Positions 14,566 to 62,129 of a stretch of 64,000 nucleotides of DNA are shown piece by piece. The notes beneath the pieces are model-generated. The model was not told the DNA's origin. It made no database searches and was given only the letters and a program-made list of their open reading frames with translations. The position numbers were made by a program, and so were the translations under genes. The DNA lies in sequence record MH533020.1; one strand, given 5' to 3'. Source of the DNA: Acinetobacter phage ABPH49. Each line of letters opens with the position of its first letter. Positions within the stretch are counted from its first letter, which is position 1.

Positions 14566-15692
14566 TTCTCAGTCTCTCCTGTTGGATTATTTGGCAGCTT
14601 TGGCGGCTTCAGCGCGAGCTTGATGATTTCGTCCAGCTTCTGTTGGGCGGTCAGCTCACCGGTAGCGGCTTTGTTCAGCTCACCATCAGCACCGACTTCT
14701 TTACCGTCAGCAAAGGACTTTTTGACTTCTGCGATTTCAGCATCTTTCGCAGCCAGAGCCGCTTGTGCTTTTTCCAGCAGGTCCAGAACCAGTTTGCTCT
14801 CAGCAGATTTCATCAGCATATCGGCGACTGGCTCACGCTGGTCTTCAGCGATGAACGCCATACCGGCAGCTTTGTTTACCAGAACTTCACGACGTGCTTC
14901 GTTGTGAGCCTTGATGATTTCTTCAGCCTTTGCTTCTTTCTCGGCAGCGGCGCTCTTCATCAGTTCGAGCTGGGCCTGCAAGTCTTGGAACTCTTTAGAC
15001 TTGGTAATGTCGAAAGCAACAGGGGCTTCAGTTTGGTTTTTGTCCACAGGTTTCTCCTTCGTTTTATTGAGGTCTTGCTGCTCCAGAGAAGGAGCCTTTG
15101 GTTGTGGCGGAGCCTGAGGGGCCGGAGCTGACGGAGCAGCTGGAACTTCAGGTTCTGCCGGATTCGCAGGGGCTGGCGGCTCAGAGAACACCAGACCGTT
15201 GTCTTCACAACCTTCTTCGAAGGTCTTGCGGATTTGGAAGACTTCGTATTGTTCTTTCAGAGAAAGCTCTTTGCCTTCTTTGGCAGACTTCAGCAGCTCA
15301 ATGCCCTGAGCTTTTTCCTCGATGTACTTCTGGTGTCGTTCGTTCCAGTCTTTATCCCAGTCATCCATCTTGTCGCCGTTTTCTTCCATGTTATACTCGG
15401 CTTCGGTTTGAAGGCCCAGTACCTTGGTCAACAGCTCTGCGTCGTCATACCACATGTCGAAGAAACGACGAAGGAACTCTTGCATACTGACTTTCAGCTG
15501 CACTTGTTCGAGAGACTTCATCATTTCAACGGTGAGAGTGTTAGGATCGATGTCTGACTTAGTCAGCAAGGAGACTGGCCTCAAGTTGGCGCTGTAACCT
15601 TGGTCCTTGTGAGTCAAAGCAATTCCTCGACTCTTGACACGACGACCTTTTTCAATGAAGGTTCTACCCTTCTGGATAAGGACGTTCAACAT
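14550..15692 (-). CDS. scaffolding protein
   Basis: 380 aa, highly charged, coiled-coil and AP-rich (AAPSAPAPQAPPQPKAP), typical scaffold composition. Confidence 0.55.
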   Translation of the reverse strand: MLNVLIQKGRTFIEKGRRVKSRGIALTHKDQGYSANLRPVSLLTKSDIDPNTLTVEMMKSLEQVQLKVSMQEFLRRFFDMWYDDAELLTKVLGLQTEAEYNMEENGDKMDDWDKDWNERHQKYIEEKAQGIELLKSAKEGKELSLKEQYEVFQIRKTFEEGCEDNGLVFSEPPAPANPAEPEVPAAPSAPAPQAPPQPKAPSLEQQDLNKTKEKPVDKNQTEAPVAFDITKSKEFQDLQAQLELMKSAAAEKEAKAEEIIKAHNEARREVLVNKAAGMAFIAEDQREPVADMLMKSAESKLVLDLLEKAQAALAAKDAEIAEVKKSFADGKEVGADGELNKAATGELTAQQKLDEIIKLALKPPKLPNNPTGETEKWLSM

Positions 15693-19808: not shown

Positions 19809-20199
19809 TTCTCCCCCAGTGACTCGTTGTATACGTCGATGAATCGTGTATCGATGGTCTTTTTCTTACCGGCGTCAGAGGCAGCGAACTCTGCCTGCTT
19901 CTTCGCAGTGTCCTTGTCCATCTGGTCAATCAACTTCTGTTTCTCTTCGGTTCTGGCACGCAGAGCAGCTGACAGGAGGGAGTTCTCAATGAACTTGCTG
20001 TCGATCTCTGTCTGCATCTTAGTACGCTTCTGCTCCCAAACTTGCTCTGAGGTCTGGTAACCTTTGTCGTAGGCTCATGCTCGAGGTGGCTGATATACAT
20101 CTTGCCTCCGAACACCAATGCCAACGCCAGACCGGCGACGATCAGGTATTTCCTGTACGTCGAGATCAGGCCGAGGATAAACTTCATGATGGTCTTCAT
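19805..20199 (-). pseudogene. i-spanin (Rz-like) split by apparent single-base deletion near 20072-20077
   Basis: N-terminal TM ORF (20199-19930) and coiled-coil ORF (20017-19805) are in frames -1 apart; coiled-coil frame open up to TGA at 20075-20077. Confidence 0.5.
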
Positions 20200-38762: not shown

Positions 38763-39196
38763 AGATAACAGACAAGCACGTATTGTTCTTTTCATACAAG
38801 GATATGTTCAGCAACCACTTCCGGTCTGAACGCCCATTCTTCTCTCCACGTCATGAGCGTGACGGGGTTAAGTTCTATACCGGCGAGCACTTCATGATGT
38901 ATGAGAAGGCAAAGCTGTTCGGTGATGAAGAGATCTCAAAGAAGATCCTTGAAACATTCCACCCTCAGGAGGCAAAGAAGCTCGGACGGCTGGTGAAGGG
39001 GTTCAACAACGATGTGTGGGAGTATCACCGTGAGGACATAATCTTCTCGATCGTGTATTGCCGGTTGGTATACGACCAACACCTACGCCTGTCGGCGCTC
39101 AATCACCGCATGGATGGCCGATCATTCGTTGAGGCGTCCCCTTGGGACAAGATCTACGGCATCGGTCTGAAGGAGACTGACCCTGCGTGCGGCTGA
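38759..39196 (+). CDS. NADAR (YbiA/DUF1768) domain protein
   Basis: FFSYKDMFSNHF...GEHFMMYEKAKLF...KKLGRLVKGFNNDVW...FVEASPWDKIYGIG matches YbiA/NADAR pattern across full length; GTG start. Confidence 0.7.
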   Translation: MKITDKHVLFFSYKDMFSNHFRSERPFFSPRHERDGVKFYTGEHFMMYEKAKLFGDEEISKKILETFHPQEAKKLGRLVKGFNNDVWEYHREDIIFSIVYCRLVYDQHLRLSALNHRMDGRSFVEASPWDKIYGIGLKETDPACG

Positions 39197-39397
39197 CGAT
39201 CCATCCCAATGGAAAGGATTAAACCTCCTCGGCAAGGCGTGGGACAACGCCACAGACGCTCTGGCGGAAAAGTGCGGAGGGTACGAGCTTATGAGTAAGG
39301 AGAGAGCAACATGGGGCATATAATGCTACTGATGGTTTACGCTGGATGGTTCTCATCGGTGGCGTGGCTAAGTTTTACTGGGAAACTGCATTTTACC

Positions 39398-39426
39398 TTG
39401 ACAGTTTCCCGTTAGCGGTGTATGGT
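39398..39426 (+). promoter_or_regulatory. sigma70-like promoter TTGACA-N17-TATGGT
   Basis: upstream of 39488 HNH gene. Confidence 0.45.
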
Positions 39427-39487
39427 ATCATGTTCTTCTTCCTGACACATCTGGTTGCTTTCTACGAAGTGAAAAGGAGGGGTTACA

Positions 39488-40000
39488 TTGTCAGATAAGA
39501 TAAAGCACAAGATCTGTCTTATCCCAAGGACATCGTGGGACCAAAACCTGCGAAGCCACCTGACGAAGACAGGTTGGGACAAGGTAAGGCGAAAGTGCTA
39601 CGCAGAACATGGCTATCATTGTCAGATCTGCGGGAACCAAGGTGGTAACGGTAAAAAACACCCCGTTGAGTGTCATGAAGACTGGACATTCGAAGACGGA
39701 GAGGTTAAGCTGGTAGGCCTTATGTGCCTGTGCCCTCCGTGTCATGAATTCCATCACCCGGGGCTGGCCGAGATGAACGGTAATGTCGAGCGTATGCTCC
39801 GGCAGTTCATGAAGGTGAATAACATCACTCGCGATCAGGCGATCGCATACATGAAGAGTGAGTTCAATATCTGGCGGGAGCGCAGCAAACAAAGCTGGAC
39901 CCTCAATATTGACTACCTCGACGAGTACATGGGTGGTGAGCAGGTTGGTAAGAAAAAGAAACCGGTGCTGAAGGACTACGGCCCGGGCGAGGCATTCTGA
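39488..40000 (+). CDS. HNH endonuclease
   Basis: CQICGN...HPVECHEDW...LMCLCPPCHEFHH HNH zinc-finger motif; 170 aa. Confidence 0.65.
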   Translation: MSDKIKHKICLIPRTSWDQNLRSHLTKTGWDKVRRKCYAEHGYHCQICGNQGGNGKKHPVECHEDWTFEDGEVKLVGLMCLCPPCHEFHHPGLAEMNGNVERMLRQFMKVNNITRDQAIAYMKSEFNIWRERSKQSWTLNIDYLDEYMGGEQVGKKKKPVLKDYGPGEAF

Positions 40001-40028
40001 GGAGTGCGAGAGAAGTGAAGAGGGGGTT

Positions 40029-42833: not shown

Positions 42834-42853
42834 ACGAGAGGAGAATAGCAGTA

Positions 42854-43828: not shown

Positions 43829-43833
43829 CACTC

Positions 43834-43861
43834 AAAGGTCACCTTCGGGTGGCCTTTTTTC
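43834..43861 (+). terminator. rho-independent terminator (copy 2 of shared 33-mer)
   Basis: identical to 38162-38194 block. Confidence 0.7.
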
Positions 43862-43929
43862 GTGATTGGTGATTGACATGGTCGGTAGGATTTGAGAAAA
43901 TTCTCATGTTGAAGAAGAGAGGAGAAGAA

Positions 43930-44567
43930 ATGAAGATCATTGCTTTAAATGCCCCTGCGAACTCCGGCAAAGACGAGATCGCTAAATACCTGAGCAAAAA
44001 TACGGCACCGTGCACATGGAGATCAAAGAGCTGCTGTTCGAAGTGGCTATCCGCGCCGCCGGGGTCAGCAAAAAGCTCTGGGAAGCACTGTATGAGCGCG
44101 AGTACAAAGAGCGCCCATGCCCATACCTGATGATCAACGGACAAAACGTCAGCCCGCGTGAGTGGATGATCCATTGTTCTGAGGGACTGATGAAGCCGAT
44201 CTTCGGCAACACTGTGTTCGGCGACGCCCTCCGCAAGAAACTCGAGGCTTTGGAAGAAGAGAATGCCGGTAAAGAGTTGGTGATCGTCCTGTCCGATGGG
44301 GGCTTCGTTGCTGAGGCGATTCCAAACATGGATTTTGTCGGTGTTCACAATTACTACCTCGCCCGCGTGCAGCGCGTGGATGAAAACGGTGACCCAAGCA
44401 AATACGGCTTCGGGGCAGATAGTCGCCGGTTCTTGTACGCCAGTGACTTTGGCTTCGCTATCCGTGCCGTTGATTGGGAAAACCGACCAAATGAGCTTGA
44501 GCAGCTGGCAGAAGAGATCTATGCCGACGCAATGGCTAACAAAAAGAGCAGCTGGGAGCAACCATGA
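43930..44567 (+). pseudogene. deoxynucleoside monophosphate kinase-like P-loop kinase split by apparent A-run deletion at 43996-44000
   Basis: MKIIALNAPANSGKDEIAKYLSKN (frame a) continues as YGTVHMEIKELLFE... in frame -1; one extra A in CAAAAAT restores a 212-aa ORF. Confidence 0.5.
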
Positions 44568-45160
44568 TTAAATGTCCTATCATTGTCGACGTGGATCAGA
44601 CCTTCGTAGATTCTGCAACACCGTGGCTTCGGTGGTGTGAGGATGTGTACGGTGTTCTGCCAGACTGGAGCCAAAGCCCTCCGAGTGGTGAGATGCACTA
44701 CAACATCGGGAGCTATTTCCCGTCGCCGAAGAAGCATCAACCTCTGCCGCTGTTGTTCTGGGAGGATCCGTTCCTCTACGACAAGCTTCGTCCTCTGCCC
44801 GGCGCACTGGTCGTACTCCGCAAACTGAAAAGTATGGGACACCCGATCCGCTTTGTCTCTTACTGCAAGAACGGCCACTTCAGTTCAAAGGCGAGATTCC
44901 TGAAGCGTGAGACAAGCGACTTCTTGGATCTCGAGACTGGGTCAACTGGGGACGGGTTCTACGCCACAAAGGTGAAAAGTGGTGTAAGCGGTGGTGTGAT
45001 CATTGACGATCGCAACGAGTTCCTGAACCAGTTTGCGGATGACGTGCTGAAGATTAAGATGTGGACCCCGTTCACACAGTCTGTTGAGCCACGTTGCAAA
45101 TACGACTTCGAGGCTCGCAGCTGGAAGCAGATCGGCGACTTCCTGCTGGCAACGCTGTAA
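44564..45160 (+). CDS. HAD-family 5'(3')-deoxyribonucleotidase-like
   Basis: IIVDVDQTFVDS (DxDxT) motif I, 198 aa. Confidence 0.5.
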   Translation: MIKCPIIVDVDQTFVDSATPWLRWCEDVYGVLPDWSQSPPSGEMHYNIGSYFPSPKKHQPLPLLFWEDPFLYDKLRPLPGALVVLRKLKSMGHPIRFVSYCKNGHFSSKARFLKRETSDFLDLETGSTGDGFYATKVKSGVSGGVIIDDRNEFLNQFADDVLKIKMWTPFTQSVEPRCKYDFEARSWKQIGDFLLATL

Positions 45161-45348
45161 TGGCGAAGGATTGTGGCACATACGCGGTTAAGTATGGGCA
45201 GCAGGTGGAGATTCTGGACGGCGAGGGGAACATCCTCGCCTCTTTCAGAGCCAGATCTGACATGTGCAAAGAAATTCTTGACAGGTATTTGGCTAACATG
45301 TACCATGTCGACACAACAAAACAGTACAAAATCAAAAGGATACGATGA
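45160..45348 (+). CDS. hypothetical protein
   Basis: 62 aa MAKDCGTYAVKYGQQ; TAATG overlap. Confidence 0.3.
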   Translation: MAKDCGTYAVKYGQQVEILDGEGNILASFRARSDMCKEILDRYLANMYHVDTTKQYKIKRIR

Positions 45349-46332
45349 ATGAGTAAAGTGTTCGAAGGTCGTGGTAACATCTTCGTTAAGGTGATTGCGG
45401 ATTCCAAAGTTCGAGAGAACAAGGAGCAAAAGGCGAGGGTAACAACGTTTGAGTTGACATACCCACGGATCATTCATGCTGAGCTGATGACTCACCGGGT
45501 CCTGACGAAAAATGCGATGTCTTCCCGAGCAGTACCGATCGCAACGATGATTGAACTGGTCCGCAGCCAACCTGCAATGCCGGTAGAGTGGGGCAGCAAT
45601 AACCCGGGAATGCGTTCCATGAACTTGCTGGGTGAAGAAGAGACTGCCAAAGCCAAGGAACTTTGGATTGAGGCCTCCGAGTTTGCTTGCCAGAAGGCAG
45701 AAGAGCTGGCCGCGCTGAATGCACACAAACAGATCGCCAACCGCCTGCTGGAGCCGTTCCAGTTTATGCGTACCATCGTTACCGGCACCGACTGGAACAA
45801 CTTCCGCTGGTTGCGTGTGGACAAGGATGCGGATCCTACCTTCTACGAACTGGCTAAGGTGATGATGGCAGCGATGGATCAAAGCCATCCAGAAACTTTG
45901 AAGTTTGGTCAGTGGCACACCCCGTATGTTGAGCATTGCGAGGGTGGAGCGCCGGGCACGTTCGGTTATTACGTGACGGATGAAGAAGATCAGCGTGTGA
46001 TGCTGACCAAGGAAGAAGCATTGGCGATCTCCGCCTCCTGCTGCGCTCAGGTGAGTTATCGCCGACTGAACAGCACGAAAGACAAAGCATTGGACATCTA
46101 TGGTCGTCTGCTGTCTGGCAACAAGGTGCACGCCAGTCCGTTCGAGCATCAGGCGACGCCTCTCCCGTACCACATGTACGAGAAGAAGCCGCTGAATGGT
46201 GTTGCACTGCCACCGTGGAACTGGCCGAAGGGTGTTACACACGTCAGCCGTGAAATGGAGTATTTCTCTGGCAACCTGCGTGGCTTCATACAGCACCGAC
46301 AATTGCTGGAAAATAACGTCAAAGCCGGTTGA
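45349..46332 (+). CDS. thyX: FAD-dependent thymidylate synthase ThyX
   Basis: ThyX signature THRVLTKNAMSSRA (RHR-x7-S-x-R) and HASPFEH; 327 aa. Confidence 0.75.
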   Translation: MSKVFEGRGNIFVKVIADSKVRENKEQKARVTTFELTYPRIIHAELMTHRVLTKNAMSSRAVPIATMIELVRSQPAMPVEWGSNNPGMRSMNLLGEEETAKAKELWIEASEFACQKAEELAALNAHKQIANRLLEPFQFMRTIVTGTDWNNFRWLRVDKDADPTFYELAKVMMAAMDQSHPETLKFGQWHTPYVEHCEGGAPGTFGYYVTDEEDQRVMLTKEEALAISASCCAQVSYRRLNSTKDKALDIYGRLLSGNKVHASPFEHQATPLPYHMYEKKPLNGVALPPWNWPKGVTHVSREMEYFSGNLRGFIQHRQLLENNVKAG

Positions 46333-46358
46333 CATTGATCAGCGGTTTTTGGTAGAAT
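46329..46358 (+). promoter_or_regulatory. sigma70-like promoter TTGACA-N18-TAGAAT
   Basis: overlaps 3' end of thyX, upstream of 46413. Confidence 0.5.
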
Positions 46359-46412
46359 TGACGACTTGCCCGGTGATGAGCCGGGCTGATACGAAAGAGA
46401 GGAAATAACCTA

Positions 46413-46958
46413 ATGGCGTTCAAAAAAGTGCAACACATCTCAGTGACTCTGGACTTCCTGCTGGAGCTGCAAAACAACGGCGGTCTGGCCCACATCGAAG
46501 AGCGTTTCGGTGGTAAAATGGATATCCTGCGGAACTCTGAGCATCTCCGCGCCGCTCTCCGCGTTGTAGGTTTCGACGCATGGGAGATCGACGACAAGGG
46601 TGAGTATGTTACGGACGAAAATGGGCACAAGAAGCCTTCCCGTATTGACAAGCTTCCTGCGGTAAACGTCCGCTGCAACAACATGCCGTACAAGTCCCGT
46701 AAATGCATCGTGTTTGCCGGTCGTATGGTTAGCGGATTCAAACACGCACGGATCTACGATGGTGTCGACATCCTTGACGTCGCAGTGGTCAAAGACAGTG
46801 CCATGCTGGACATGGTTAACGAGTTCGACTATGACGTCCCGGTTGTGGATAAAGTAAATACCCGGAAGTACACCAAACGCGAAGATCGTAACTCCACCGT
46901 CGAAGTGGAATACACACCTGAGCAACTGGAACAACTGTCCGCAATCTTTGGAGAGTAA
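46413..46958 (+). CDS. hypothetical protein
   Basis: 181 aa. Confidence 0.4.
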   Translation: MAFKKVQHISVTLDFLLELQNNGGLAHIEERFGGKMDILRNSEHLRAALRVVGFDAWEIDDKGEYVTDENGHKKPSRIDKLPAVNVRCNNMPYKSRKCIVFAGRMVSGFKHARIYDGVDILDVAVVKDSAMLDMVNEFDYDVPVVDKVNTRKYTKREDRNSTVEVEYTPEQLEQLSAIFGE

Positions 46959-46962
46959 TGCA

Positions 46963-47220
46963 ATGGCGAGAAAGCAAACCCCGGCGAAGTGTGTTCCAGT
47001 TGAGAATACCAAATGGCATCAGCGTGGATTCACCGACAAACACCATTACCAAGGGTGGTTGCAGTTCAACGACCTGATCGACGAAGGTTATGGGTACGAT
47101 GACACGTACTATGACCAGTTCAGTGGTAAAACAATTCGCATCGCGGGCAGTACAGATGCACCTGACGGCACCGAGGCGGATGAAGCAGCACAATTCCTGA
47201 AAATGCACGACAAACAATAA
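46963..47220 (+). CDS. hypothetical protein
   Basis: 85 aa. Confidence 0.35.
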   Translation: MARKQTPAKCVPVENTKWHQRGFTDKHHYQGWLQFNDLIDEGYGYDDTYYDQFSGKTIRIAGSTDAPDGTEADEAAQFLKMHDKQ

Positions 47221-47233
47221 AAGGGAGATTCAC

Positions 47234-49507
47234 TTGATCAACAAGATTGTAAAGGCCAACGGTTCCACGGTAGACTTCGATCCTGCAAAACTGAACGGCT
47301 GGGCCAAGTGGGCGGCTCAGTATGGTGTAGACTGGAGCAACATCGCACTGCAAGCAGTTAAAAAGTGTTTCGATGGTTGTTCCACGAAAGACCTTCAGCA
47401 AGCAATGATCGACGCCTGCGTTGACCGTGTGGATGAGCCGCATATGATGATGGCAGGACGCCTTCTGATTGGCAACATCTACAAAGAGGCCTTTGGCGGT
47501 CATGATAAGATCCCTACGCTGAAAGACTTCTACCACAGCATGGTTGGAAAGGGCTTTTGGCAGGAGATGGATTACACCGATGAAGAGCTGGATGTGATCG
47601 ACCGCTTCATCGACCATGACAAAGACCTGAATACACCGTACCCGGAACTGAACCAGATCCGAACGAAGTACACCTGCATCGACCGTGTTAATGACGTGTG
47701 CCATGAAAGCCCACAGTTCATGTACATCGGCATGGCGATGAAGAACATGGAGAAATCTCCGAAAGACGAGCGAATGACTGACATTAAGATGCTGTACACG
47801 TATCTGAGTGACAAGAAGATCAACGCTCCAACGCCATTTATGGTAAACCTTCGCACTCCGAAGGGCGGCTATGCCTCCTGTTGCGTAAGCACCACCGAGG
47901 ACACGGCCCCGTCTCTGGCGGCAGCAGACCACATCAACTACATGATGACCTGCGCCTCCGCCGGGATCGGTGCTCACATTAAGAGCCGCAGCAAGTGGGA
48001 CGCCGTGGGTAAAGGTCAGGTTGTCCACCAAGGCAAAATGCCGTACTACCGTGCGACTGTTGCTATGGTGAGTGCAAACCTCCAGTCCAGTCGTGGTGGT
48101 GCAGCAACAATGCACTTCAACTGCATGGACCCTGAGGTTGAGGACCTGTTGCAGCTGAAGAACCCGACGACTGTGACCCAGAAGCAGATCCGCGACATCG
48201 ACTACTCGTTCGGTGCCATGCGTCTGTTCGGTAAGCACGTAGCCAAGAACTTGCCTTGGATGCTGATCAGCTACGCTGCGGCACCGGACCTGTACGAAGC
48301 GGCTTACTCTGAGGATCAGGTTGAGTTCGAGCGCCTTTACGAGCAATACGCTAACGATGAAAAGACCAAGAAGGCTTTCATCTCGGCACGTGAACTGCTG
48401 GTCCTGAACTTGACGCAGCGGATTGAAACTGGCAGGATCTATCAGCACTTCACTGACCGCCTGAACCAGCAGACTCCGTTCAAAGACAAGATCTACAGCT
48501 CGAACCTGTGCCAAGAGATCGGCCTGCCGACCAAAGGGTACGACAACGTTCACCAGCTGAACGAAGCGTCTGAGAGCGGAGAGATTGGTCTGTGCAGCCT
48601 GTCAGCGTTGGTTGCTGGCCGTATCAAGGATGAAGAGTACGGTGACGTGGCGTATTACGCGCTGAAAATGGTTGACAACGTGATCGATTTGATGGAATAT
48701 CCATTCCCTCAGCTCGAGTTCACCGCGAAGGCCCGTCGGAGCATCGGCATCGGGATCACCAACTTGGCGTATGCTATGGCGAAGAACGGCTACAGCTACT
48801 CAACGGAAGAGGGTCGTAATTACGTGCACCGTCTGGCAGAGCTTCACAGCTACAGCCTGCACCGTGCAAGTCTGCGACTGGCTAAAGAACGTGGAGTGTG
48901 CGACTGGATTGGCCGGACCAAATACCCACAGGGTTGGTTCCCACATGATGCAGCTGTACCTGCGGTGGATACAGTCCACTCCCAGCCTCTGCTTCAGGAC
49001 TGGGAGACTCTCCGCAAAGAGATCGTTGAGTCCGGTGGTATTCGACACAGCGTCCTCGAGGCACACATGCCTTGCGAGAGCAGCTCGGTGGCAAGTGGTA
49101 CGCTTAACGGCCTGTATCCGGTTCGTTCACTGAAGACCGTGAAAAGCTCGGGCAATGAGCGCAAGAACGTCGTAATCGTCCCAGAGTACGATAAGCTGAA
49201 GGACAAGTACGACATTGCGTGGGAAGTGAGTACCAAGCATCTGACGGAGATTTATGCCCTTGTGCAGAAATTTACCGGTCAGGGGATCAGTGCCGACTTC
49301 TACGTCGTATTCAAGGAAGGTGAAGAGCGTAAGATCAGTACCCGCGTATTGATCAGCGACTACCTCTACATGATGAAGATGGGGCTGAAGACTGCTTACT
49401 ACCTCAACAGCAAAACCTCGGTTGCCGGTCTGAACACTGGCGTCCGTGATGCAGTTGTCGAGGAGCAGGAGAACGAAGATTGCGCCGGTGGTGGCTGCAA
49501 GCTGTAA
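47234..49507 (+). CDS. nrdA: ribonucleotide reductase large subunit (class I, NrdA)
   Basis: 757 aa; N-terminal ATP-cone (KANGSTVDFDPAKL), catalytic region with conserved Cys/Asn/Glu context; TTG start. Confidence 0.85.
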   Translation: MINKIVKANGSTVDFDPAKLNGWAKWAAQYGVDWSNIALQAVKKCFDGCSTKDLQQAMIDACVDRVDEPHMMMAGRLLIGNIYKEAFGGHDKIPTLKDFYHSMVGKGFWQEMDYTDEELDVIDRFIDHDKDLNTPYPELNQIRTKYTCIDRVNDVCHESPQFMYIGMAMKNMEKSPKDERMTDIKMLYTYLSDKKINAPTPFMVNLRTPKGGYASCCVSTTEDTAPSLAAADHINYMMTCASAGIGAHIKSRSKWDAVGKGQVVHQGKMPYYRATVAMVSANLQSSRGGAATMHFNCMDPEVEDLLQLKNPTTVTQKQIRDIDYSFGAMRLFGKHVAKNLPWMLISYAAAPDLYEAAYSEDQVEFERLYEQYANDEKTKKAFISARELLVLNLTQRIETGRIYQHFTDRLNQQTPFKDKIYSSNLCQEIGLPTKGYDNVHQLNEASESGEIGLCSLSALVAGRIKDEEYGDVAYYALKMVDNVIDLMEYPFPQLEFTAKARRSIGIGITNLAYAMAKNGYSYSTEEGRNYVHRLAELHSYSLHRASLRLAKERGVCDWIGRTKYPQGWFPHDAAVPAVDTVHSQPLLQDWETLRKEIVESGGIRHSVLEAHMPCESSSVASGTLNGLYPVRSLKTVKSSGNERKNVVIVPEYDKLKDKYDIAWEVSTKHLTEIYALVQKFTGQGISADFYVVFKEGEERKISTRVLISDYLYMMKMGLKTAYYLNSKTSVAGLNTGVRDAVVEEQENEDCAGGGCKL

Positions 49508-49551
49508 TGTCACAAGGCGGGGGTAATTCCCCGCTTCCACAAGGAGAGAAA

Positions 49552-50648
49552 ATGTCCGTATTCAACAAAGAGAATAACAACTGGAAAACTGGTAAGTACC
49601 CCCTGTTTTTGGGAGAGCAACTGGGCCTTCTCGACACCGTAAACACACCATACAAGCGCCTGTTCGAACTGTACAAGCTGCAAAAGAGCATCGACTGGGA
49701 CGAGAACGAGATGAACCTCGAGCAGTCACGTTTGGACATGGCAACCTGCCTGCCGGGCACCCGAAACCTGATGATCAAGAACTTGGCATTCCAAGCCGAG
49801 CTTGATGGTATCGCGGCACGATGCATGGCACCGCTGCTGGCACCGTTCATCACCAACACGGAGATGTGGCTGGGAGTATCCAAGATCACCGAGGTGGAAA
49901 ACCTCCACGCGATCACTTACACCACGATCATCCGCAACGTACTGAAGAATCCAGAAGAGTTCTTCGAAGAGATCACCAAGAACGAGAAGATCTTCGATCG
50001 TTCTGACAGCGTAATGGAAGTATTTGACGAGCTGGCGATCGCCGGTGCAAAATACACGCTGGACAAAAACTCCATCCCGCGCCGCGAGCTTATGTCTCTG
50101 CTGTTGCGTGCCTACGTGGGCATTTACTGTCTGGAGCGACTCCAGTTCATGTCTTCGTTCGCTGCAACCTTCGCGATCGGCGAGCAGGGCATGATGGTCG
50201 GGATCGCCAAGCTGGTATCGAAGATGCTCAGGACGAGCAGCTGCACGCAGCGTTCGACGAGGAAGTTATTCGGATCCTGTTGGCAGACCCAGAGTGGGCG
50301 GAAGTTTACGAAGAGATTAAGCCGTTTGTGCTGCGCTTTGTAAACGCTGTAACCAAGAGCGAGCTGGACTGGAACGAATATCTGTTCTCCGAGGGTCGTC
50401 AGATCGTTGGCCTGAACCGCCAGTTGCTGGACGAATGGGTCCTGTTGAACGCGGGTGTGGTGTACAAGTTCTTGGGCGTTGAAAACCCGCACAAGATCAT
50501 CGATGTGTCCCCGATCACTTGGATGGGCGATTGGCTGGATATCTCCAAGTTCCAGTTCGCGGCACAAGAAGGTGACATCACCGACTACCCAATGAACGTC
50601 GTGAGTAATGACGTTTCCGATGATGAAGAATTCGACTTCGAGGGATAA
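49552..50648 (+). pseudogene. nrdB: ribonucleotide reductase small subunit NrdB, split by apparent single-T deletion near 50216
   Basis: N-terminal frame (to 50343) and C-terminal frame (50280-50648) are -1 apart; AKLV|IEDAQDEQLH aligns to E. coli NrdB AKIIRLIARDEALH when one T is restored in GGTATC. Confidence 0.75.
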
Positions 50649-50649
50649 G

Positions 50650-50943
50650 ATGAGCTACATTGTCTTTGGTAAAGAGAACTGCCCGTACTGCGTCCGCGCC
50701 AAGAACCTTCTGGAGCTTGGTGGGTTTGAGTACCGGTACTTGGATGTAGGTAAGGACGGCCATGCCTTCCAAACCATGCTGGACTGGGTCACAGATGCAA
50801 CGGGGACCGGCCCGAAATCGGTACCTCAGATTTTCGTTGACGAAGACGACACCATGACGTACATTGGTGGACACGACGACTTGGTATTGGCCCTCAACAA
50901 GGCCAAGACTGAAGAGTTGGGCGACGAAGACTTCGACTTTTGA
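50650..50943 (+). CDS. glutaredoxin (NrdC/NrdH-like)
   Basis: 97 aa, CPYC active site, immediately after nrdB. Confidence 0.7.
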   Translation: MSYIVFGKENCPYCVRAKNLLELGGFEYRYLDVGKDGHAFQTMLDWVTDATGTGPKSVPQIFVDEDDTMTYIGGHDDLVLALNKAKTEELGDEDFDF

Positions 50944-50957
50944 CAGAGGAGATAAAG

Positions 50958-51335
50958 ATGACCCGTCAAGAAGCACTGAATTACGTAGCAACAGAGCTGG
51001 CTGCACAGGCAGTGCGCCATCAGCGTGTGGCTGCACAACAAACTCTCGACTTCCTGAGCCAGATTGACCCAACCGGGGATCCTGACCTCGAGAAGAAGAT
51101 CCAAATGGGGAAGGAAGAGCTGGCCCTCTTCTCCTCTCAGAAGTTTCTCCGTGCACTTGAGTATCTGTACGCGGAGATCTATGACGGGCTGGAAGACAAA
51201 CATCTCATTCGCTTCGCGGAAGAGGTCGAGTACGAACTGGCCGTCTCAACTGTGGGTGCGTTGAACGCGGCGCGTGTCGGAGAGTTGGTAGACCAGCTGA
51301 TCAACGGCACCTACGTGGCACCAACAATCCAATAA
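50958..51335 (+). CDS. hypothetical protein
   Basis: 126 aa, GAGGAGATAAAG RBS. Confidence 0.35.
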   Translation: MTRQEALNYVATELAAQAVRHQRVAAQQTLDFLSQIDPTGDPDLEKKIQMGKEELALFSSQKFLRALEYLYAEIYDGLEDKHLIRFAEEVEYELAVSTVGALNAARVGELVDQLINGTYVAPTIQ

Positions 51336-51345
51336 GAGGTAATGA

Positions 51346-51837
51346 ATGGCTACAAGTCAGAACCTGAGGGCATTTCTGGACATGCTGGCATGGTCAGAGG
51401 GGACCAGTACAAGCCCGGCCACCAAAAATAACGGTTACGATGTGATCGTTACGGGGATCGACAAGAAACCCGAGGTGTTCACTGATTATTCGGATCATCC
51501 CTTCAACAAAGGGCGTAAATCCAAAGTGATCAATTCCAAAGGCCTGACTTCTAACGCCTCCGGGCGTTATCAGTTCATGCTGCGGGACTGGGCGCACTAC
51601 AAGGCTCAGCTGGGTCTGAAAGACTTCAGCCCAGAGTCTCAGGAGAAATGGGCAATTCAGCTCATCAAGGAACGAAGAGCATTGCCTGACATCGAGAACG
51701 GTAATATCACCGCTGCGATCAGTAAGTGCCGTAACATCTGGGCATCTCTGCCCGGTGCGGGGTATGACCAGCCGGAACATCCGGCAGGGAAGCTGATTGC
51801 ACAGTACGTGAAAGCCGGTGGTATCTTCAAATCCTAA
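51346..51837 (+). CDS. endolysin, lambda R-like lytic transglycosylase
   Basis: RAFLDMLAWSEGT...NGYDVIV...FTDYSDHP...SGRYQFMLRDW...QLGLKDFSPESQ...IWASLPGAGYDQPEH matches lambda R nearly motif-for-motif. Confidence 0.85.
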   Translation: MATSQNLRAFLDMLAWSEGTSTSPATKNNGYDVIVTGIDKKPEVFTDYSDHPFNKGRKSKVINSKGLTSNASGRYQFMLRDWAHYKAQLGLKDFSPESQEKWAIQLIKERRALPDIENGNITAAISKCRNIWASLPGAGYDQPEHPAGKLIAQYVKAGGIFKS

Positions 51838-51849
51838 AAGGAGACACAC

Positions 51850-52596
51850 ATGCGTCGAAACAACCGTAAAGAAGCACAGGATCGCCGTGACCGTAAAGAA
51901 GTCCGTGGCCGGATTGTAACTCAGCGTGGTAGAGAGGAAGCCTCGATGGCTAAGCCGATCACCCCGCAGGGGATCTTCCAGAAGGATCTTCTTTTCGCGA
52001 TTTCCAACAAGAGTGCAGTCTTCGTTGATGCACCTGCTGGTTCGGGTAAGACGTTTGTTGTGATGAGTACCGTATCTGACTGGCTGAAGCAGGGCAAGAT
52101 CAAGAAGATCGTCCTGTCCCGACCAAGTGTCGGGATGGGTAAGTCTCTCGGACTCTTGCCCGGAGACATCAAGGAGAAGTTCGAGCCGTATCTGGCAGCA
52201 CTGATCTCTGTGTTGACAAATCGGTACGGGCACGGGTACTATGAGACTCAACTGTCCAACAAGAACATCGAGTTCGTGCCTCTGGAATACATCCGTGGCC
52301 GGTCATTTGACAACGCTGTCGTGATCGTCGACGAGTTCCAGAACACCACAGAGGATGATGCTTACACCATCATGACTCGTCTGGGTGAGAACTCTCGCAT
52401 GTTCTGTCTGGGTGATTGCACCCAGAGCGACATGAGGGGCCGTACAACTGGACTGGAGTGGGCGATCAGCTTCATCGATCGTCACAATCTTGGAGAGTTT
52501 GCGGAAATTGTGGAAGGCGACAGCGACGATATCGTCCGCAGTCCTTTCTGCCGGGCGGTTGTTAAAGCTCGAGAACAAGATCTGGGTCTGAATTAA
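51850..52596 (+). CDS. phoH: PhoH-like ATPase
   Basis: Walker A DAPAGSGKTF, VVIVDEFQN, GDCTQSD; true start may be 51946 (MAKPITPQ). Confidence 0.75.
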   Translation: MRRNNRKEAQDRRDRKEVRGRIVTQRGREEASMAKPITPQGIFQKDLLFAISNKSAVFVDAPAGSGKTFVVMSTVSDWLKQGKIKKIVLSRPSVGMGKSLGLLPGDIKEKFEPYLAALISVLTNRYGHGYYETQLSNKNIEFVPLEYIRGRSFDNAVVIVDEFQNTTEDDAYTIMTRLGENSRMFCLGDCTQSDMRGRTTGLEWAISFIDRHNLGEFAEIVEGDSDDIVRSPFCRAVVKAREQDLGLN

Positions 52597-52821
52597 GGAG
52601 TCAAAATGCAAGATGAATTCGATGGTTTCATCGGCTACGGTGAAGGCATCCTCGGTGAAGAAGACTGGGGAGTTTTCAAGAAGAGTGAGGAGAACTGGGA
52701 TGTTTGATAAACAAATGGCCCAACTTCACTCGGATGCGATGAAGCTCCGCAGTCTGATGGATGACCTGCTGATTCGCTCAGCTGAAGATGTGGATTTCTT
52801 CGACGAGTACGAGGGCGTCTA

Positions 52822-53454
52822 ATGTATTACACGGGGATCGGCAGTAGAGATATCCCGGCAGAGGTGGTTAGCATCATGGAAGATGCTGGCTACCGACTTG
52901 CCAAGATGGGGTGGGTTCTCCGCTCAGGAAAGGCAGACGGGTCCGACGCAGCATTCCAACGTGGGATGCAGAAGTACGTGATAGACTCTGGGATCTCGGA
53001 CTACAAGCGCTTGGCTGAAATTTACATCCCTTGGGACAATTTCACCGGCGGTCAAGGACTTCGAGATCATTGGGACATAAGTCTGAACCAAATCGACATG
53101 TTGTTCCCAGAGCACTCGGCGATGAGGAAGGAGTGGATGTCTGAAGTTCACCCAGCACCAGAGCGTTTGTCTCAGGGTGCCGAGAAACTTCACCTCCGCA
53201 ACGTCCATCAGGTGTTCGGTCCAAACCTGACAGATGCCTTCATAAACCAGAGCAAGTTCGTGTTGTATTACGCGAAAGAAGACAAGAAGGGTAATCCAAA
53301 AGGCGGCACTGCCACGGCTGTAAACCTTGCCAAGAAGACCGGGATCCGAGTCCTTAACCTTCTGAATCAAGAGGGGCGTGACAAGCTGGAGAGTTTCCTC
53401 AAGCAAATGGAGGAGAGAAGGAATGCAAAAAGTGAAGGTAGTCCTCTGCGCTAA
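52822..53454 (+). CDS. DprA/Smf-like (SLOG/Rossmann) protein
   Basis: MYYTGIGSRDIP...RSGKADGSDAAFQRG resembles DprA SGGAxGIDxxAH Rossmann motif; 210 aa. Confidence 0.4.
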   Translation: MYYTGIGSRDIPAEVVSIMEDAGYRLAKMGWVLRSGKADGSDAAFQRGMQKYVIDSGISDYKRLAEIYIPWDNFTGGQGLRDHWDISLNQIDMLFPEHSAMRKEWMSEVHPAPERLSQGAEKLHLRNVHQVFGPNLTDAFINQSKFVLYYAKEDKKGNPKGGTATAVNLAKKTGIRVLNLLNQEGRDKLESFLKQMEERRNAKSEGSPLR

Positions 53455-53569
53455 GTGCCTGAAGGTGTATAGGATAAAAGACCCTAAGGATTGTTGCCCG
53501 GGGTGCAAGAAGCAGATATTCTACTCGAACTACACGACCGAGGAGGTTGATGATGTTAAAGGATCCTAA
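53423..53569 (+). CDS. small zinc-ribbon protein
   Basis: CAKC...CPGC, 48 aa; GGAGAGAAGG RBS. Confidence 0.3.
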   Translation: MQKVKVVLCAKCLKVYRIKDPKDCCPGCKKQIFYSNYTTEEVDDVKGS

Positions 53570-53879
53570 GGACCTGAATTATCTCTACTCGTTGGGTAAG
53601 AGAAAAGGCGCACAGTATTTTGAAGTGTGCAACATAGTCGGCGACTGGCTGATTAGTGTTGACGATGGGAAGAAGGTTTGCAAGAGTGACCAGCTTACCC
53701 GTCGCCGGATGTTCCGCGAAGCGGAGTTCATTGTGAAGCCACAAGTTGAGGGCCAGCCTTACAAGCAAGGGGCGAGGATCTCTAAGGAAGATAGTGATGG
53801 ACACCCAGCATGGTTCTACATTGTTGAAGTCGGCGAAGAAAGCCCTGACGGAGACGTCAAGTTGTTGGTTGCGTACTGA
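53553..53879 (+). CDS. hypothetical protein
   Basis: about 108 aa. Confidence 0.35.
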   Translation: MLKDPKDLNYLYSLGKRKGAQYFEVCNIVGDWLISVDDGKKVCKSDQLTRRRMFREAEFIVKPQVEGQPYKQGARISKEDSDGHPAWFYIVEVGEESPDGDVKLLVAY

Positions 53880-53895
53880 TCAAAAGGGAGAGTGC

Positions 53896-54405
53896 ATGAG
53901 TCAAGTGTTGTTGGCGGTGGTTCCGCATCGTCGGTTGATGGAGCTGAAGAACTCCGGGGTTGTTCGTCCACAAACGATCAAAGATTTGGCGGATATCGCC
54001 TTCATCAGACTGCGTGACAAGATCATTGCCAAGCGGATTGAAGCAGAGAAGCCTACCGGAATCCTGCGGCTGATGAAAAGAAGCACATTCGAACACCACC
54101 TTACCCGCGAGGTTGAAGTGATGTTCGAGAATCGCGAGGCGCTGGTGTCTCACGTCCAGTGCATTAAGGATCGTCTGCCAACACCTCTTGTGCCGGTGGA
54201 TGAGTCAGAAGTGAAGGATCTTCTGTTCTTGGATCGCGCTACCACGTGTGCCGCAGAAGCGGAGAAGGTTGTGATGCTGTTCAAACTGCATGACGAGGTA
54301 ATCGTTGATGCGGATACCAGCTTCCTGTTGAGCTGGCTGATGAGCAACACGCAGCGAATCAAAGACCACATTGCCGGGGAGGTGAAAGATGAATCGAACC
54401 AATAA
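53896..54405 (+). CDS. hypothetical protein
   Basis: 169 aa; AAGGGAGAG RBS. Confidence 0.35.
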   Translation: MSQVLLAVVPHRRLMELKNSGVVRPQTIKDLADIAFIRLRDKIIAKRIEAEKPTGILRLMKRSTFEHHLTREVEVMFENREALVSHVQCIKDRLPTPLVPVDESEVKDLLFLDRATTCAAEAEKVVMLFKLHDEVIVDADTSFLLSWLMSNTQRIKDHIAGEVKDESNQ

Positions 54406-55868: not shown

Positions 55869-56228
55869 ATGAAATATTACCTGTATGCAGTTGCCCTGTT
55901 CACCAAGAAAGACAAGAAGCCTAACGGCTCGATGGTAAAACTCGTCGAAAGTAAGGATGAAGGTCTTGAAAGTGAAGGCATCCGGTGCTACACTTTGAAA
56001 ATCGACACGGCGACATTCTCTCGTTGGAATAATGCTCTGTCCTCCTGCGATGACGGTACAGGTTGGGCAGTTATCCCACAAACAGAAGCGGAGCTGTTGG
56101 CTAAAATAACGGGGAAAGAGTTAAAACCTTTCCGAAACCCAGATTGGGAAGACAAAATAGAGGAGTATAAAGCATGGCCGGGCCAAAACGAGACTTCGAC
56201 AAGGTATTTGAGTTCGAGACAGCTGTAA
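55869..56228 (+). CDS. hypothetical protein
   Basis: 119 aa, GGAGGAAAC RBS. Confidence 0.35.
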   Translation: MKYYLYAVALFTKKDKKPNGSMVKLVESKDEGLESEGIRCYTLKIDTATFSRWNNALSSCDDGTGWAVIPQTEAELLAKITGKELKPFRNPDWEDKIEEYKAWPGQNETSTRYLSSRQL

Positions 56229-56386
56229 ATCCAGACTTCCTCGCGGCAGTTAGCTGTTACCCGGACGTGTGGATCTCTTATATCGGTACAGAATCTTGGG
56301 ACGATAGCATTGAAGTTATCGTGACTTCAAAAAATGAAAAGTCGGTGTCTGAGCTGGCAGAAAGATTCGGAGGTAAGAATGGCTGA
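56174..56386 (+). CDS. hypothetical protein
   Basis: 70 aa, GAGGAG RBS; overlaps previous ORF by 55 nt. Confidence 0.35.
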   Translation: MAGPKRDFDKVFEFETAVNPDFLAAVSCYPDVWISYIGTESWDDSIEVIVTSKNEKSVSELAERFGGKNG

Positions 56387-57640
56387 TATCAAAAATATCT
56401 GGTTGGTGGCGCTGTCCGCGACATGCTGATGGGCAAGGAACCAAAAGACCGCGATTACGTGGTGGTTGGGTCTACCCATGAGGAGATGATCTCCCTTGGC
56501 TTCGGTATGCCATTTGGTGCGGCATTCCCTGTCTATCACCACCCTGAAACCAAGGAAGAGTATGCACTGGCACGTACAGAGCGCTCAACCGGTCCGGGTT
56601 ACCACGACTTCGAGACTTTGTTCTCGCCTGACGTAACTCTGGAACAGGACCTGCTTCGCCGCGACCTGACGATCAATGCGATCGCATACGACGAAGAGAC
56701 TGGTGAGTTCATCGATCCGCATGGCGGTGTTGAAGACATCAAAAATAAACAGCTGCGTCCGGTAAACCCAAAGGCATTCCTTGAGGATCCTCTGCGAATC
56801 TACCGACTGGCTCGTCTGTTTGCCCGGTACGGCGGTGAGTTCCAAATCGGTTGGCGCACCATGTGGCTGGTAACTCAGGCTGTCAAAGCCGGTGGCCTGA
56901 ACCACCTGCCAAAGGAAAGGAAATTCGCCGAGATCGAGAAGTGCTTCAAAGACGACTCTCGCAGCAACAAACCTTCCATGATGATCACCTTCTTGGCAGA
57001 TATCGGTGAACTGCCGGAGATTGCTGCTCTGGAAGGTGTCCCACAACCGGCGGAGCACCATCCTGAGGGTGACGCTTTCGTCCACACTATGTTGGTGATG
57101 GATGCCGCGTTCAATCTGGGGGCGAGCGCACAGGAGCTGTTCGCAGCCATGCTGCACGACGTGGGAAAGGCCGTGGTTTACGAAAAGTACGGCAAGCTTC
57201 ACGGTCACGAAGAGGCGGGTGTTCCGGTAGTGGAGCAAGTGTGCGACCGGTTTGGTGTACCACTCAGCTGGAGAAAGCTGGCGGTTGTGTGCACAGAGAA
57301 TCATGGCCGGGTCCACAAAATCCGCGACATGCGCCCAAAAAAGGTTCTGGCACTCCTTGAACGATTGAAAGCAGAGCAATCCTTTGATACGATGCTGTCA
57401 CTGTGTCTGGTTTGTCAGGCCGACGCATGGGGACGTGGCCCGGATCGTTATGGAAAGATGTACCTGCAAGGGGTGTACCTGATGAATGTTGCAGAAGCTC
57501 TGGCACTGGCACGGAAAGATCTGAAGATCAAAAACCGTGAAATTGCCTTGCAATGCAAAGGTAATCCGGGTAAGATTGCTGAAAGAGTTCGGGCAGAGAA
57601 ACTGTCCGTGGTAAAATCCGCGATACGGGAGATGAGTTGA
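56379..57640 (+). pseudogene. cca: tRNA nucleotidyltransferase (CCA-adding enzyme, class II + HD domain) with apparent A-run deletion at 56391-56395
   Basis: MADIKN (frame x) then YLVGGAVRDMLMG...RDLTINA...HDVGK in frame -1; restoring one A gives MADIKKYLVGGAVRD, the canonical N-terminus. Confidence 0.75.
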
Positions 57641-61698: not shown

Positions 61699-62129
61699 TC
61701 CGTGGTCAGCTGTCGATCTCCAGACGGGATGGCGGCGGTGTACCGGCGCGAGTGACCATCAAGATTCGTGATGAAGTAAGCCGTACCGATTTTGTTGAGA
61801 TTGAGATTCCGTTCGACGAGTTCGCAAGGGCGCTGATGGGATCCGCAGAGCGTCCAATGGGCTACCGTACTAAAGGTCTGGACGTTATCGGCAAAGAACG
61901 CATCAATGAGAATCGCAAGATGATCGTGGACAACGTCGGTTACGACAAGGATGTGTATTCCAAAATCATCGATCGAGACTTCAAAGAGGAAGGGTGGAAA
62001 GCCTGCTCTTATCTCGGTTCAAAGAACTCGATCACTCGACTGGGTGACGAAAAGGTTCAACTGAGCTTTGTCGTGAGCAAATACGAGGAGAGCAAAGACA
62101 ATGAGTACAAGCATCCACCTGAGCCGTGA
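61677..62129 (+). CDS. hypothetical protein
   Basis: 150 aa. Confidence 0.35.
   Translation: MSKENKLIRGQLSISRRDGGGVPARVTIKIRDEVSRTDFVEIEIPFDEFARALMGSAERPMGYRTKGLDVIGKERINENRKMIVDNVGYDKDVYSKIIDRDFKEEGWKACSYLGSKNSITRLGDEKVQLSFVVSKYEESKDNEYKHPPEP

What the first reader, a model, noticed from the sequence alone, without database searches (positions are those of the whole stretch)
56379..56440. CCA-adding enzyme gene has an A5 run where A6 is needed (MADIKN / YLVGGAVRD in different frames)
The ATG with RBS at 56379 gives MADIKNIWLVALSATC*. The conserved head motif YLVGGAVRDMLMG and the rest of the 405-aa class II CCA enzyme/HD domain are in the -1 frame. Adding one A to 56391-56395 gives MADIKKYLVGGAVRD, which is textbook. 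This is the fourth homopolymer indel, and the second at CAAAAATA.
Basis: seen in the sequence. Interest (0 to 1): 0.55.

Follow-up and report, generated by a model that had tools for sequence, protein, structure and literature searches.

The report
Likely sequencing-error frameshift in phage CCA gene
A phage gene for the enzyme that repairs the CCA ends of tRNAs looks broken by one missing A in a run of A's, but its near-identical sister phage has the intact gene, and the pattern of similar breaks across the window points to an error in the deposited sequence, not to biology.

Summary
ATG 56379 with a GGAGG ribosome-binding site opens a 16-codon ORF (MADIKNIWLVALSATC*), and YLVGGAVRD plus the rest of the enzyme lie in the -1 frame. 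The window comes from Acinetobacter phage ABPH49 (MH533020), whose depositors annotated only the truncated 405-aa ORF. Its closest relative, Serratia phage Kashira (Illumina, 52x), has no substitution in this gene but carries A6, giving exactly the predicted MADIKKYLVGGAVRD in an intact 420-aa protein. A third lineage from public reads also has A6. All 50 aligned homologs keep the N-terminal motif, including five invariant residues that the 405-aa ORF lacks.

The window has seven such frameshifts relative to Kashira, among them RNR-beta, dNMP kinase and the Rz-like spanin. All six 1-nt ones are deletions in the window, and each leaves the downstream protein perfectly preserved. They are spread evenly per base rather than in proportion to local divergence (p=0.0008), while substitutions remain strongly purified. 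Only the two C-A6-TA sites lost an A.

Most likely (~0.7) this is a systematic base-calling or assembly error. A real recent loss-of-function deletion is possible (~0.23). Programmed slippage or frameshifting is not supported (~0.03). The gene itself is an ordinary phage class II CCA-adding/repair enzyme. Interest is low.

The parts
56369..56373 (+). Shine-Dalgarno GGAGG, 5 nt upstream of the true start codon
   Evidence: Read directly from the sequence. Identical in Kashira.
56379..56429 (+). True start codon (ATG 56379) and the 16-codon dead-end ORF MADIKNIWLVALSATC*, as created by the missing A
   Evidence: The first five codons (MADIK) equal the N-terminus of Kashira URC22732.1.
56391..56395 (+). 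A5 run (CAAAAATA); it is A6 in Kashira and in Logan contig SRR19221883_2427
   Evidence: Alignments. This is the only difference from Kashira across the 1263-nt gene.
56396..57640 (+). Body of the CCA-adding/repair enzyme gene in the -1 frame (Y7 to S420 plus stop), 100% identical in protein to Kashira
   Evidence: Matches PHROG 2244 'tRNA nucleotidyltransferase' at 3.7e-121. Matches NCBIfam NF008137 over its full length at 380 bits.
56423..57640 (+). The 405-aa ORF as annotated in GenBank (AXN57812.1), starting at internal Met16. It has no good SD and lacks the invariant residues V9 G10 G11 R14 D15
56396..56758 (+). Nucleotidyltransferase head domain (PF01743, residues 7-127 of the repaired protein), including catalytic D24, D26 and E61
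   Evidence: Alignment to A. aeolicus 1VFG D31/D33/E74, with residue roles taken from PMC3925840.
57080..57319 (+). HD phosphohydrolase domain (PF01966, residues 235-314), with invariant H260 D261
56174..56386 (+). Upstream 70-aa gene whose TGA stop overlaps the CCA start (ATGGCTGA). In the window it sits in the same frame as the CCA body
43996..44000 (+). Sister event: A6 to A5 in the same C-A6-TA context, frameshifting the dNMP kinase gene at codon 24
50225..50225 (+). Sister event: TT to T, frameshifting ribonucleotide reductase beta at codon 225
39184..39191 (+). Sister event: TGCG tandem duplication (the extra copy is 39188-39191), frameshifting the phrog_1017 gene (KASHIRA_01270 homolog)
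39373..39376 (+). Sister event: T5 to T4, frameshifting the 62-aa KASHIRA_01280 homolog
20074..20074 (-). Sister event: CC to C, frameshifting the Rz-like i-spanin (lysis gene) at codon 43
14619..14619 (-). Sister event: CC to C, changing the last 11 codons of a head-module gene (phrog_2970) and extending it

Best explanation
The gene is an ordinary phage-encoded class II tRNA nucleotidyltransferase. It is the E. coli Cca type, with an N-terminal nucleotidyltransferase head and a C-terminal HD phosphohydrolase. Its likely job is to rebuild damaged 3' CCA ends of phage and host tRNAs during infection. The apparent frameshift at 56391-56395 is most likely not in the phage's DNA at all. I read it as a one-base undercall of an A6 run in the deposited ABPH49 genome (MH533020), one of a set of about seven similar consensus errors in this 64-kb window. 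On that reading the real phage makes the 420-aa protein MADIKKYLVGGAVRD... from ATG 56379. Shown here: the frames, the identity of the gene, the A6 allele in relatives, and the statistical behaviour of the frameshifts. Inferred: that the cause is a sequencing or assembly error, since no reads were available, and that the enzyme's activity is CCA addition and repair.
For: (1) Kashira is the closest relative and was sequenced on Illumina MiSeq 2x300 at 52x (PMC10070969). Across the 1263-nt gene it has no substitution and differs only by the extra A, giving an intact 420-aa ORF. An independent Logan assembly of Kashira's reads also has A6, as does a third lineage, SRR19221883, which mixes window and Kashira SNP alleles.
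(2) All 50 aligned homologs (44-81% identity) have the N-terminal motif. V9, G10, G11, R14 and D15 are invariant, and all lie upstream of the internal Met16.
(3) The window carries 7 frameshifts inside genes that are intact in Kashira. All six 1-nt ones are deletions in the window, and in each the downstream Kashira protein is preserved 100% in the shifted frame. The affected genes include RNR-beta, dNMP kinase and the Rz-like i-spanin.
(4) Substitutions show strong purifying selection: 390 synonymous against 98 nonsynonymous codon changes. The N:S ratio is the same in low- and high-divergence segments (p=0.59).
(5) Three of the 7 frameshifts lie in the 40-60 kb segment, which holds only 23 of 796 substitutions. 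That has p=0.0008 if frameshifts tracked divergence and p=0.69 if they are uniform per base. Fisher's test of frameshifts against synonymous changes gives p=0.003. In contrast, all six intergenic 1-nt indels lie in divergent segments and run in both directions.
(6) Of 17 A6/T6 runs, only the two in the C-A6-TA context are shortened, which is 1/136 by chance. That suggests a systematic, context-dependent miscall.
Against: No reads or platform information exist for MH533020, which has no primary paper. I found no second assembly of the ABPH49 lineage. Replication slippage in real DNA also scales with run length and favours deletions. Mutations on a recent clonal frame would also be uniform per base. 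The CCA enzyme is plausibly dispensable, because all 19 phage tRNAs encode their own CCA. RNR, dNMP kinase and spanins can likewise be dispensable in the laboratory. Two of the sister events, a TGCG tandem duplication and a TT to T change, are not classic homopolymer miscalls.
Confidence: 0.72

Rival explanations
1. The deletion is real. The ABPH49 lineage recently lost one A by replication slippage, inactivating an accessory tRNA-repair gene. At most, a 405-aa product from Met16 is made. It would lack strand beta-1 and the GGxVRD loop, so it could not act as a nucleotidyltransferase, though its HD domain might remain functional. The other frameshifts would then be parallel decay of nucleotide-metabolism genes, for example during laboratory passage or after a change of host.
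For: Indel frequency rises with run length, as expected for slippage: 3/19 six-mers, 2/113 five-mers, 2/479 four-mers. The gene shows no other change, consistent with a very recent event. All 19 phage tRNAs encode CCA, so the enzyme is a repair function and plausibly dispensable, as cca is in E. coli (the E. coli point is from my own knowledge). The phage is reported on A. baumannii while its near-twin infects Serratia (PMC11126041), so relaxed selection after a host change is conceivable. The TGCG duplication looks like a true mutation.
Against: Seven disrupted genes among about 100 in 64 kb is a very high pseudogene load for a lytic phage whose substitutions remain strongly purified. The i-spanin is among the broken genes. 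All 1-nt frameshifts are on the ABPH49 side and all are deletions. Hitting exactly the two C-A6-TA sites among 17 equivalent runs is unlikely for independent mutations (p about 0.007). Internal Met16 has no usable SD: the upstream sequence is TCTGGTTGGTGGCGCTGTCCGCGAC.
Confidence: 0.23
2. The A5 is real and is decoded by programmed recoding. Either RNA polymerase inserts an extra A at CAAAAATA, or the ribosome shifts -1 there, so a fraction of product is full-length. The same device would operate at the dNMP kinase site.
For: Both shortened A6 runs share the same 8-9-nt context and both lie near the 5' end of their genes at a K-K-Y codon triplet. The true start with its strong SD is retained.
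Against: Kashira is essentially identical in both genes, and the third lineage covers the CCA gene. Both encode their proteins in one frame with A6, so no frameshift is conserved. More distant homologs start MK[IKV]YLVGG in a single ORF without a conserved A run. The 0-frame C AAA AAU is not an X XXY YYZ slippery heptamer (read directly from the sequence). The 85 nt downstream fold no better than shuffles (z=-1.31, 20/200 shuffles as good). From my own knowledge, bacterial RNA polymerase slippage needs longer runs, about 7-9 or more A/T, or special hairpin-assisted motifs. Five other frameshifts in the window have no such context.
Confidence: 0.03

Closest known systems
[quoted passage not shown]
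   Same: The 405-aa ORF is 100% identical in protein, and the gene has no nucleotide substitution. It has the same neighbours, SD, start codon and ATGGCTGA overlap with the upstream gene.
   Different: Kashira has A6 and one uninterrupted 420-aa ORF. Its GenBank product name, 'DNA methylase', is wrong.
E. coli-type multifunctional CCA addition/repair protein (Cca; NCBIfam NF008137 / PRK10885)
   Same: It matches profile positions 2-404 of 409 (1.3e-113). It has the same head plus HD architecture, the DxD and third carboxylate, RRD, EDPLR and HD motifs.
   Different: It scores 380 bits, below the 451-bit equivalog cut-off, so it is a divergent phage branch. Its activity is untested.
Phage tRNA nucleotidyltransferases of Vequintavirinae and relatives (PHROG 2244; e.g. 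Escherichia phage A7_1, Pectobacterium phage POP15, Salmonella phage SSBI34, Serratia phage ChuuTotoro)
   Same: Identity is 53-77%, the lengths are similar (416-439 aa), and the N-terminus MK.YLVGGAVRD is conserved.
   Different: Those genes are all intact single ORFs.
Aquifex aeolicus A-adding enzyme (PDB 1VFG, 4WBZ) and bacterial CCA-adding enzymes (6IBP, 1MIV)
   Same: These are the closest solved structures over the head and neck (residues 4-193, E about 1e-25 to 1e-15). They allow assignment of catalytic D24, D26 and E61 (PMC3925840).
   Different: They have no HD domain, they are matched only over the N-terminal half, and the best hit has a different specificity (A-adding).

Membership tests
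Class II tRNA nucleotidyltransferase / poly(A) polymerase superfamily (PF01743 head) | Head domain matches PF01743 above the gathering score | tested here: met
   79.2 bits against a cut-off of 23, residues 7-127 covering profile 2-126 of 126.
Class II tRNA nucleotidyltransferase / poly(A) polymerase superfamily (PF01743 head) | N-terminal strand and Gly-rich GGxVRD motif present in the same reading frame as the rest of the enzyme | tested here: not met
   In the window as deposited, YLVGGAVRD is in-frame with the body, but it has no start codon and is cut off from ATG 56379 by the frameshift. The longest ORF starts at Met16.
Class II tRNA nucleotidyltransferase / poly(A) polymerase superfamily (PF01743 head) | Catalytic DxD plus a third carboxylate on the head beta-sheet | tested here: met
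   D24, D26 and E61 align to D31, D33 and E74 of 1VFG. D26 is invariant, and D24 and E61 are at least 90% conserved. Residue roles are from PMC3925840.
Class II tRNA nucleotidyltransferase / poly(A) polymerase superfamily (PF01743 head) | RRD motif and EDxxR nucleotide-templating motif | tested here: met
   R94, R95 and D96 are invariant. EDPLR is present with D137, P138 and R140 invariant. The motif's role is from PMC2532741.
Class II tRNA nucleotidyltransferase / poly(A) polymerase superfamily (PF01743 head) | Adds C-C-A specifically, as opposed to A-adding, CC-adding or poly(A) polymerase activity | not testable with these tools
   The best curated family is CCA addition/repair. Specificity needs an enzyme assay or complementation of an E. 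coli cca mutant.
Multifunctional CCA addition/repair protein (NF008137, E. coli Cca type) | Score at or above the curated equivalog cut-off | tested here: not met
   379.9 bits against a 451-bit cut-off, although the match runs full length over 2-404 of 409.
Multifunctional CCA addition/repair protein (NF008137, E. coli Cca type) | C-terminal HD phosphohydrolase domain with an H...HD motif | tested here: met
   PF01966 scores 30.8 bits against a cut-off of 22, over residues 235-314. H228, H236, H260, D261, H277 and H309 are invariant.
Programmed -1 ribosomal frameshift site | X XXY YYZ slippery heptamer in the 0 frame | tested here: not met
   The 0 frame reads AUC AAA AAU AUC. The heptamer C AAA AAU does not allow P-site re-pairing.
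Programmed -1 ribosomal frameshift site | Downstream stimulatory RNA structure | tested here: not met
   The 85 nt after the run fold at -29.4 kcal/mol, z=-1.31, and 20 of 200 shuffles fold as well.
Programmed recoding (ribosomal or transcriptional) | Frameshifted gene organisation conserved in relatives | tested here: not met
   Kashira, SRR19221883, ChuuTotoro and all 50 aligned homologs encode the protein in one frame.
Programmed transcriptional slippage site | Long A/T run (about 7-9 or more) or a hairpin-assisted slippery motif, with heterogeneous transcripts | tested here: not met
   The run is only A5, and the longest run anywhere in the window is 6. The length threshold is from my own knowledge. 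Transcript heterogeneity is not testable here.

The most novel reading that the evidence does not exclude
The A5 and the six other frameshifts are real. ABPH49 would then be a Serratia-phage lineage caught in the act of shedding nucleotide-metabolism and tRNA-repair genes (CCA enzyme, dNMP kinase, RNR-beta, a phrog_1017 gene) after moving to a new host (Acinetobacter). Alternatively, the two identical C-A5-TA sites are decoded by low-level slippage to give a small dose of full-length enzyme.
Probability: 0.2. Interest if true: 0.35.

Novelty: not a real feature. Interest (0 to 1): 0.08.

Why it matters
Mostly as housekeeping. GenBank record MH533020 (ABPH49) appears to carry a set of one-base errors that truncate or split at least seven genes in this window. 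They include the CCA-adding enzyme, deposited as a 405-aa protein (AXN57812.1) that lacks its conserved N-terminal motif. These truncated proteins propagate into protein databases; here the truncated form is even the cluster representative. If the frameshifts were instead real, they would document rapid multi-gene decay in a lytic phage. That would be of moderate interest for understanding which auxiliary genes are dispensable.

Tried and rejected
1. I searched for either allele (A5 or A6) in IMG/VR, JGI metagenome and GTDB genome contigs and found no hits.

2. Exact look-ups of the 405-aa ORF and of two neighbouring ABPH49-specific proteins, aimed at finding another assembly of this lineage, returned nothing on record. 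MH533020 is not in the annotated phage collection.

3. The literature on ABPH49 gives no primary paper and no sequencing platform.

4. Alternative start: between the TGA at 56384-56386 and Y7 there are only the codons TAT CAA AAA, and the only near-cognate codon is CTG (L8), 24 nt or more from the SD. I rejected this.

5. Stop-codon read-through from the upstream 70-aa gene is formally possible in the window, because that gene is in the same frame as the CCA body. But in Kashira the two are in different frames, so this is an accident of the deletion. Rejected.

6. -1 PRF and transcriptional slippage are rejected for the reasons given under rival explanations.

7. The possibility that Kashira, not the window, carries the error is rejected. 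The Kashira allele gives the intact, universally conserved protein and is reproduced by an independent assembly and by a third lineage.

8. I did not run structure prediction. It would not discriminate between the hypotheses.

Full report
**Observation.** A strong Shine-Dalgarno (GGAGG, 56369-56373) precedes ATG 56379. The frame it opens reads MADIKNIWLVALSATC and stops at 56427-56429. From 56396 the -1 frame reads YLVGGAVRDMLMGKEPKDRDYVVVG... and continues to the stop at 57638-57640. The longest formal ORF there is 405 aa, starting at an internal ATG at 56423. The run at 56391-56395 is A5. With one more A the product is a 420-aa protein carrying a PolyA_pol head domain (PF01743, 4.5e-22) and an HD domain (PF01966, 3.8e-7).

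**Source and relatives.** The 405-aa ORF is identical to AXN57812.1, 'tRNA nucleotidyltransferase [Acinetobacter phage ABPH49]', on a 149,960-bp contig. The window is therefore part of GenBank MH533020, an unpublished genome discussed only in comparative papers (PMC8878043, PMC11126041).

[quoted passage not shown] Window 1-64000 corresponds to Kashira 32151-95117 at 77-100% local identity.
- Across the CCA gene, Kashira has no substitution and differs only by one extra A. It has CAAAAAATA and an uninterrupted 420-aa CDS, KASHIRA_01580, mislabelled 'DNA methylase'.
- Kashira was sequenced on Illumina MiSeq 2x300 at 52x (PMC10070969).
- Independent Logan assemblies give the same A6. One is SRR19221879, which is Kashira itself. 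The other is SRR19221883, a third lineage that shares the window's allele at 57858 and Kashira's at 57952.
- The more distant ChuuTotoro (73% nt) and every protein homolog examined start MK[IKV]YLVGGAVRD in one ORF.

**What the gene is.**

- PHROG 2244 'tRNA nucleotidyltransferase' matches at 3.7e-121.
- The best NCBIfam family is NF008137, 'multifunctional CCA addition/repair protein'. It matches end to end (2-404 of 409) at 380 bits, below the 451-bit equivalog cut-off.
- The closest solved structures are the A. aeolicus A-adding enzyme (1VFG, 4WBZ) and bacterial CCA-adding enzymes (6IBP, 1MIV), matched over the head and neck.
- By that alignment the catalytic carboxylates are D24, D26 and E61, corresponding to D31, D33 and E74 of 1VFG. 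Their roles are as described in PMC3925840.
- RRD (94-96), the EDPLR templating motif (role per PMC2532741) and the HD residues (H260 D261) are invariant in a 50-sequence alignment.
- V9, G10, G11, R14 and D15 are also invariant, and all lie upstream of Met16. The annotated 405-aa product would lack the first strand and the Gly-rich loop of the head domain. I infer from this that it would be inactive as a nucleotidyltransferase.
- Met16 has no usable SD, and there is no other start codon in frame upstream of Y7.
- All 19 tRNA genes in the window encode their own CCA. The enzyme's role would therefore be 3'-end repair rather than maturation, which makes it an accessory function.

**Error, mutation or recoding?** I compared the whole window with Kashira.

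- *Purifying selection on substitutions.* Codon changes split 390 synonymous to 98 nonsynonymous.
- *Indel inventory.* There are 13 single-base indels, one 4-nt duplication and two 3-nt in-frame indels.
  - Six single-base indels are intergenic. They run in both directions and all lie in divergent segments, as expected of real evolutionary differences.
  - One (31859, A5 to A4) removes a stop codon and extends the gene by 9 codons.
  - Six single-base indels and the TGCG duplication lie inside genes that are intact in Kashira:
    - a head-module gene, in its last 11 codons
    - the Rz-like i-spanin
    - a phrog_1017 gene
    - a 62-aa gene
    - dNMP kinase
    - RNR-beta
    - the CCA enzyme
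- *Direction and preservation.* All six single-base frameshifts are deletions in the window. In every case the downstream Kashira protein is preserved 100% in the shifted frame.
- *Distribution.*
  - Three of the seven frameshifts fall in the 40-60 kb segment, which contains only 23 of the 796 substitutions. That has p=0.0008 if frameshifts accumulated like divergence and p=0.69 if they are uniform per base.
  - Fisher's test of frameshifts against synonymous changes gives p=0.003.
  - The N:S ratio does not differ between segments (p=0.59).
- *Run-length dependence.* 3/19 six-mers changed, 2/113 five-mers, 2/479 four-mers, and about 0.03% of two-mers.
- *Context.* Of 17 A6/T6 runs, only the two followed by TA (C-A6-TA) are shortened. 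The 15 others are unchanged, as are three C-A5-TA sites. That is 1/136 by chance.

A per-base-uniform, deletion-biased, context-specific process that ignores selection is what consensus errors look like. I therefore consider a sequencing or assembly artefact the best explanation, at about 0.72.

**Caveats.** I could not see reads and the platform is unknown. No other assembly of the ABPH49 lineage was found. Real replication slippage also depends on run length. Recent clonal-frame mutations would also be uniform per base. The affected genes are mostly auxiliary. The TGCG duplication and the TT to T change are not classic homopolymer errors. A real, recent loss-of-function deletion therefore keeps about 0.23.

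**Programmed recoding.** This is poorly supported, at about 0.03. Relatives encode both C-A6-TA genes in a single frame. C AAA AAU is not a slippery heptamer. No significant downstream structure is predicted (z=-1.31). A5 is well below the run lengths known to support RNA polymerase slippage (this last point is from my own knowledge).

**Comparison with known.** The gene is a member of the well-populated phage tRNA nucleotidyltransferase family found across Vequintavirinae and relatives, and it works like E. coli Cca. Membership of the class II superfamily is met on every sequence criterion once the frame is repaired. Membership of the strict NF008137 equivalog is not met by score. Nothing about the locus is new. 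The only unusual thing is the frameshift, which is probably not biological.

**Verdict.** The likely cause is an error in the deposited sequence. Interest is low (0.08).

Noticed in passing
window 14619, 20074, 31855-31858, 39184-39191, 39373-39376, 43996-44000, 50225: Seven further gene-disrupting indels relative to Kashira. They affect the C-terminus of a head-module gene, the Rz-like i-spanin, the stop codon of the hyp_01110 homolog (a 9-codon extension), a phrog_1017 gene (TGCG duplication), a 62-aa gene, dNMP kinase and RNR-beta. In each frameshift the downstream protein is preserved in the shifted frame.
   Followed up: yes
window 43996-44000 and 56391-56395, against 15 other A6/T6 runs (e.g. 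56329-56334, 57337-57342): Only the two A6 runs followed by TA (C-A6-TA in Kashira) are shortened. All other six-mers are unchanged, as are three C-A5-TA sites (6257, 51423, 56740). The chance probability is about 1/136. This suggests a context-dependent miscall, but the platform is unknown.
   Followed up: partly
whole window: The record is named Acinetobacter phage ABPH49, yet it is 98-100% identical over most of the window to a phage isolated on Serratia marcescens (Kashira). The host assignment may deserve checking. PMC11126041 has already remarked on this.
   Followed up: partly
L001 2280-3542 (Kashira 87492-88754) and L001 1138-1680: Kashira's CCA-adding enzyme is annotated 'DNA methylase', while the methyltransferase-like gene three genes upstream is 'hypothetical'. 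Its ChuuTotoro homolog is labelled as a SAM-dependent methyltransferase. This looks like a misplaced product name in ON287374.
   Followed up: partly
window 20415-25483 (minus strand): There are 19 tRNA genes, and all encode the 3' CCA. Kashira has 20 in the corresponding region. Window 24846-25361 does not align to Kashira 56090-56361, so the tRNA content there differs (Arg only, against Arg plus a second Phe).
   Followed up: partly
window 40000-54000 against 6900-10000: Divergence from Kashira is strongly mosaic: 7 substitutions in 14 kb at 40-54 kb, against 192 in 2 kb at 8-10 kb. Kashira CDSs 38928..39986 and 61834..61950 have no counterpart in the window. This indicates recent recombination among related phages.
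   Followed up: no
window 56174-56398: Because of the missing A, the upstream 70-aa gene and the CCA body are in the same frame, separated only by TGA TAT CAA AAA. In Kashira they are in different frames, so this is an accident of the deletion.
   Followed up: yes
L007 (Logan SRR19221883_2427, 1972 bp): This is a third lineage of the phage in a public read set. It carries the window's allele at 57858, Kashira's allele at 57952, and A6 with an intact 420-aa CCA gene.
   Followed up: yes
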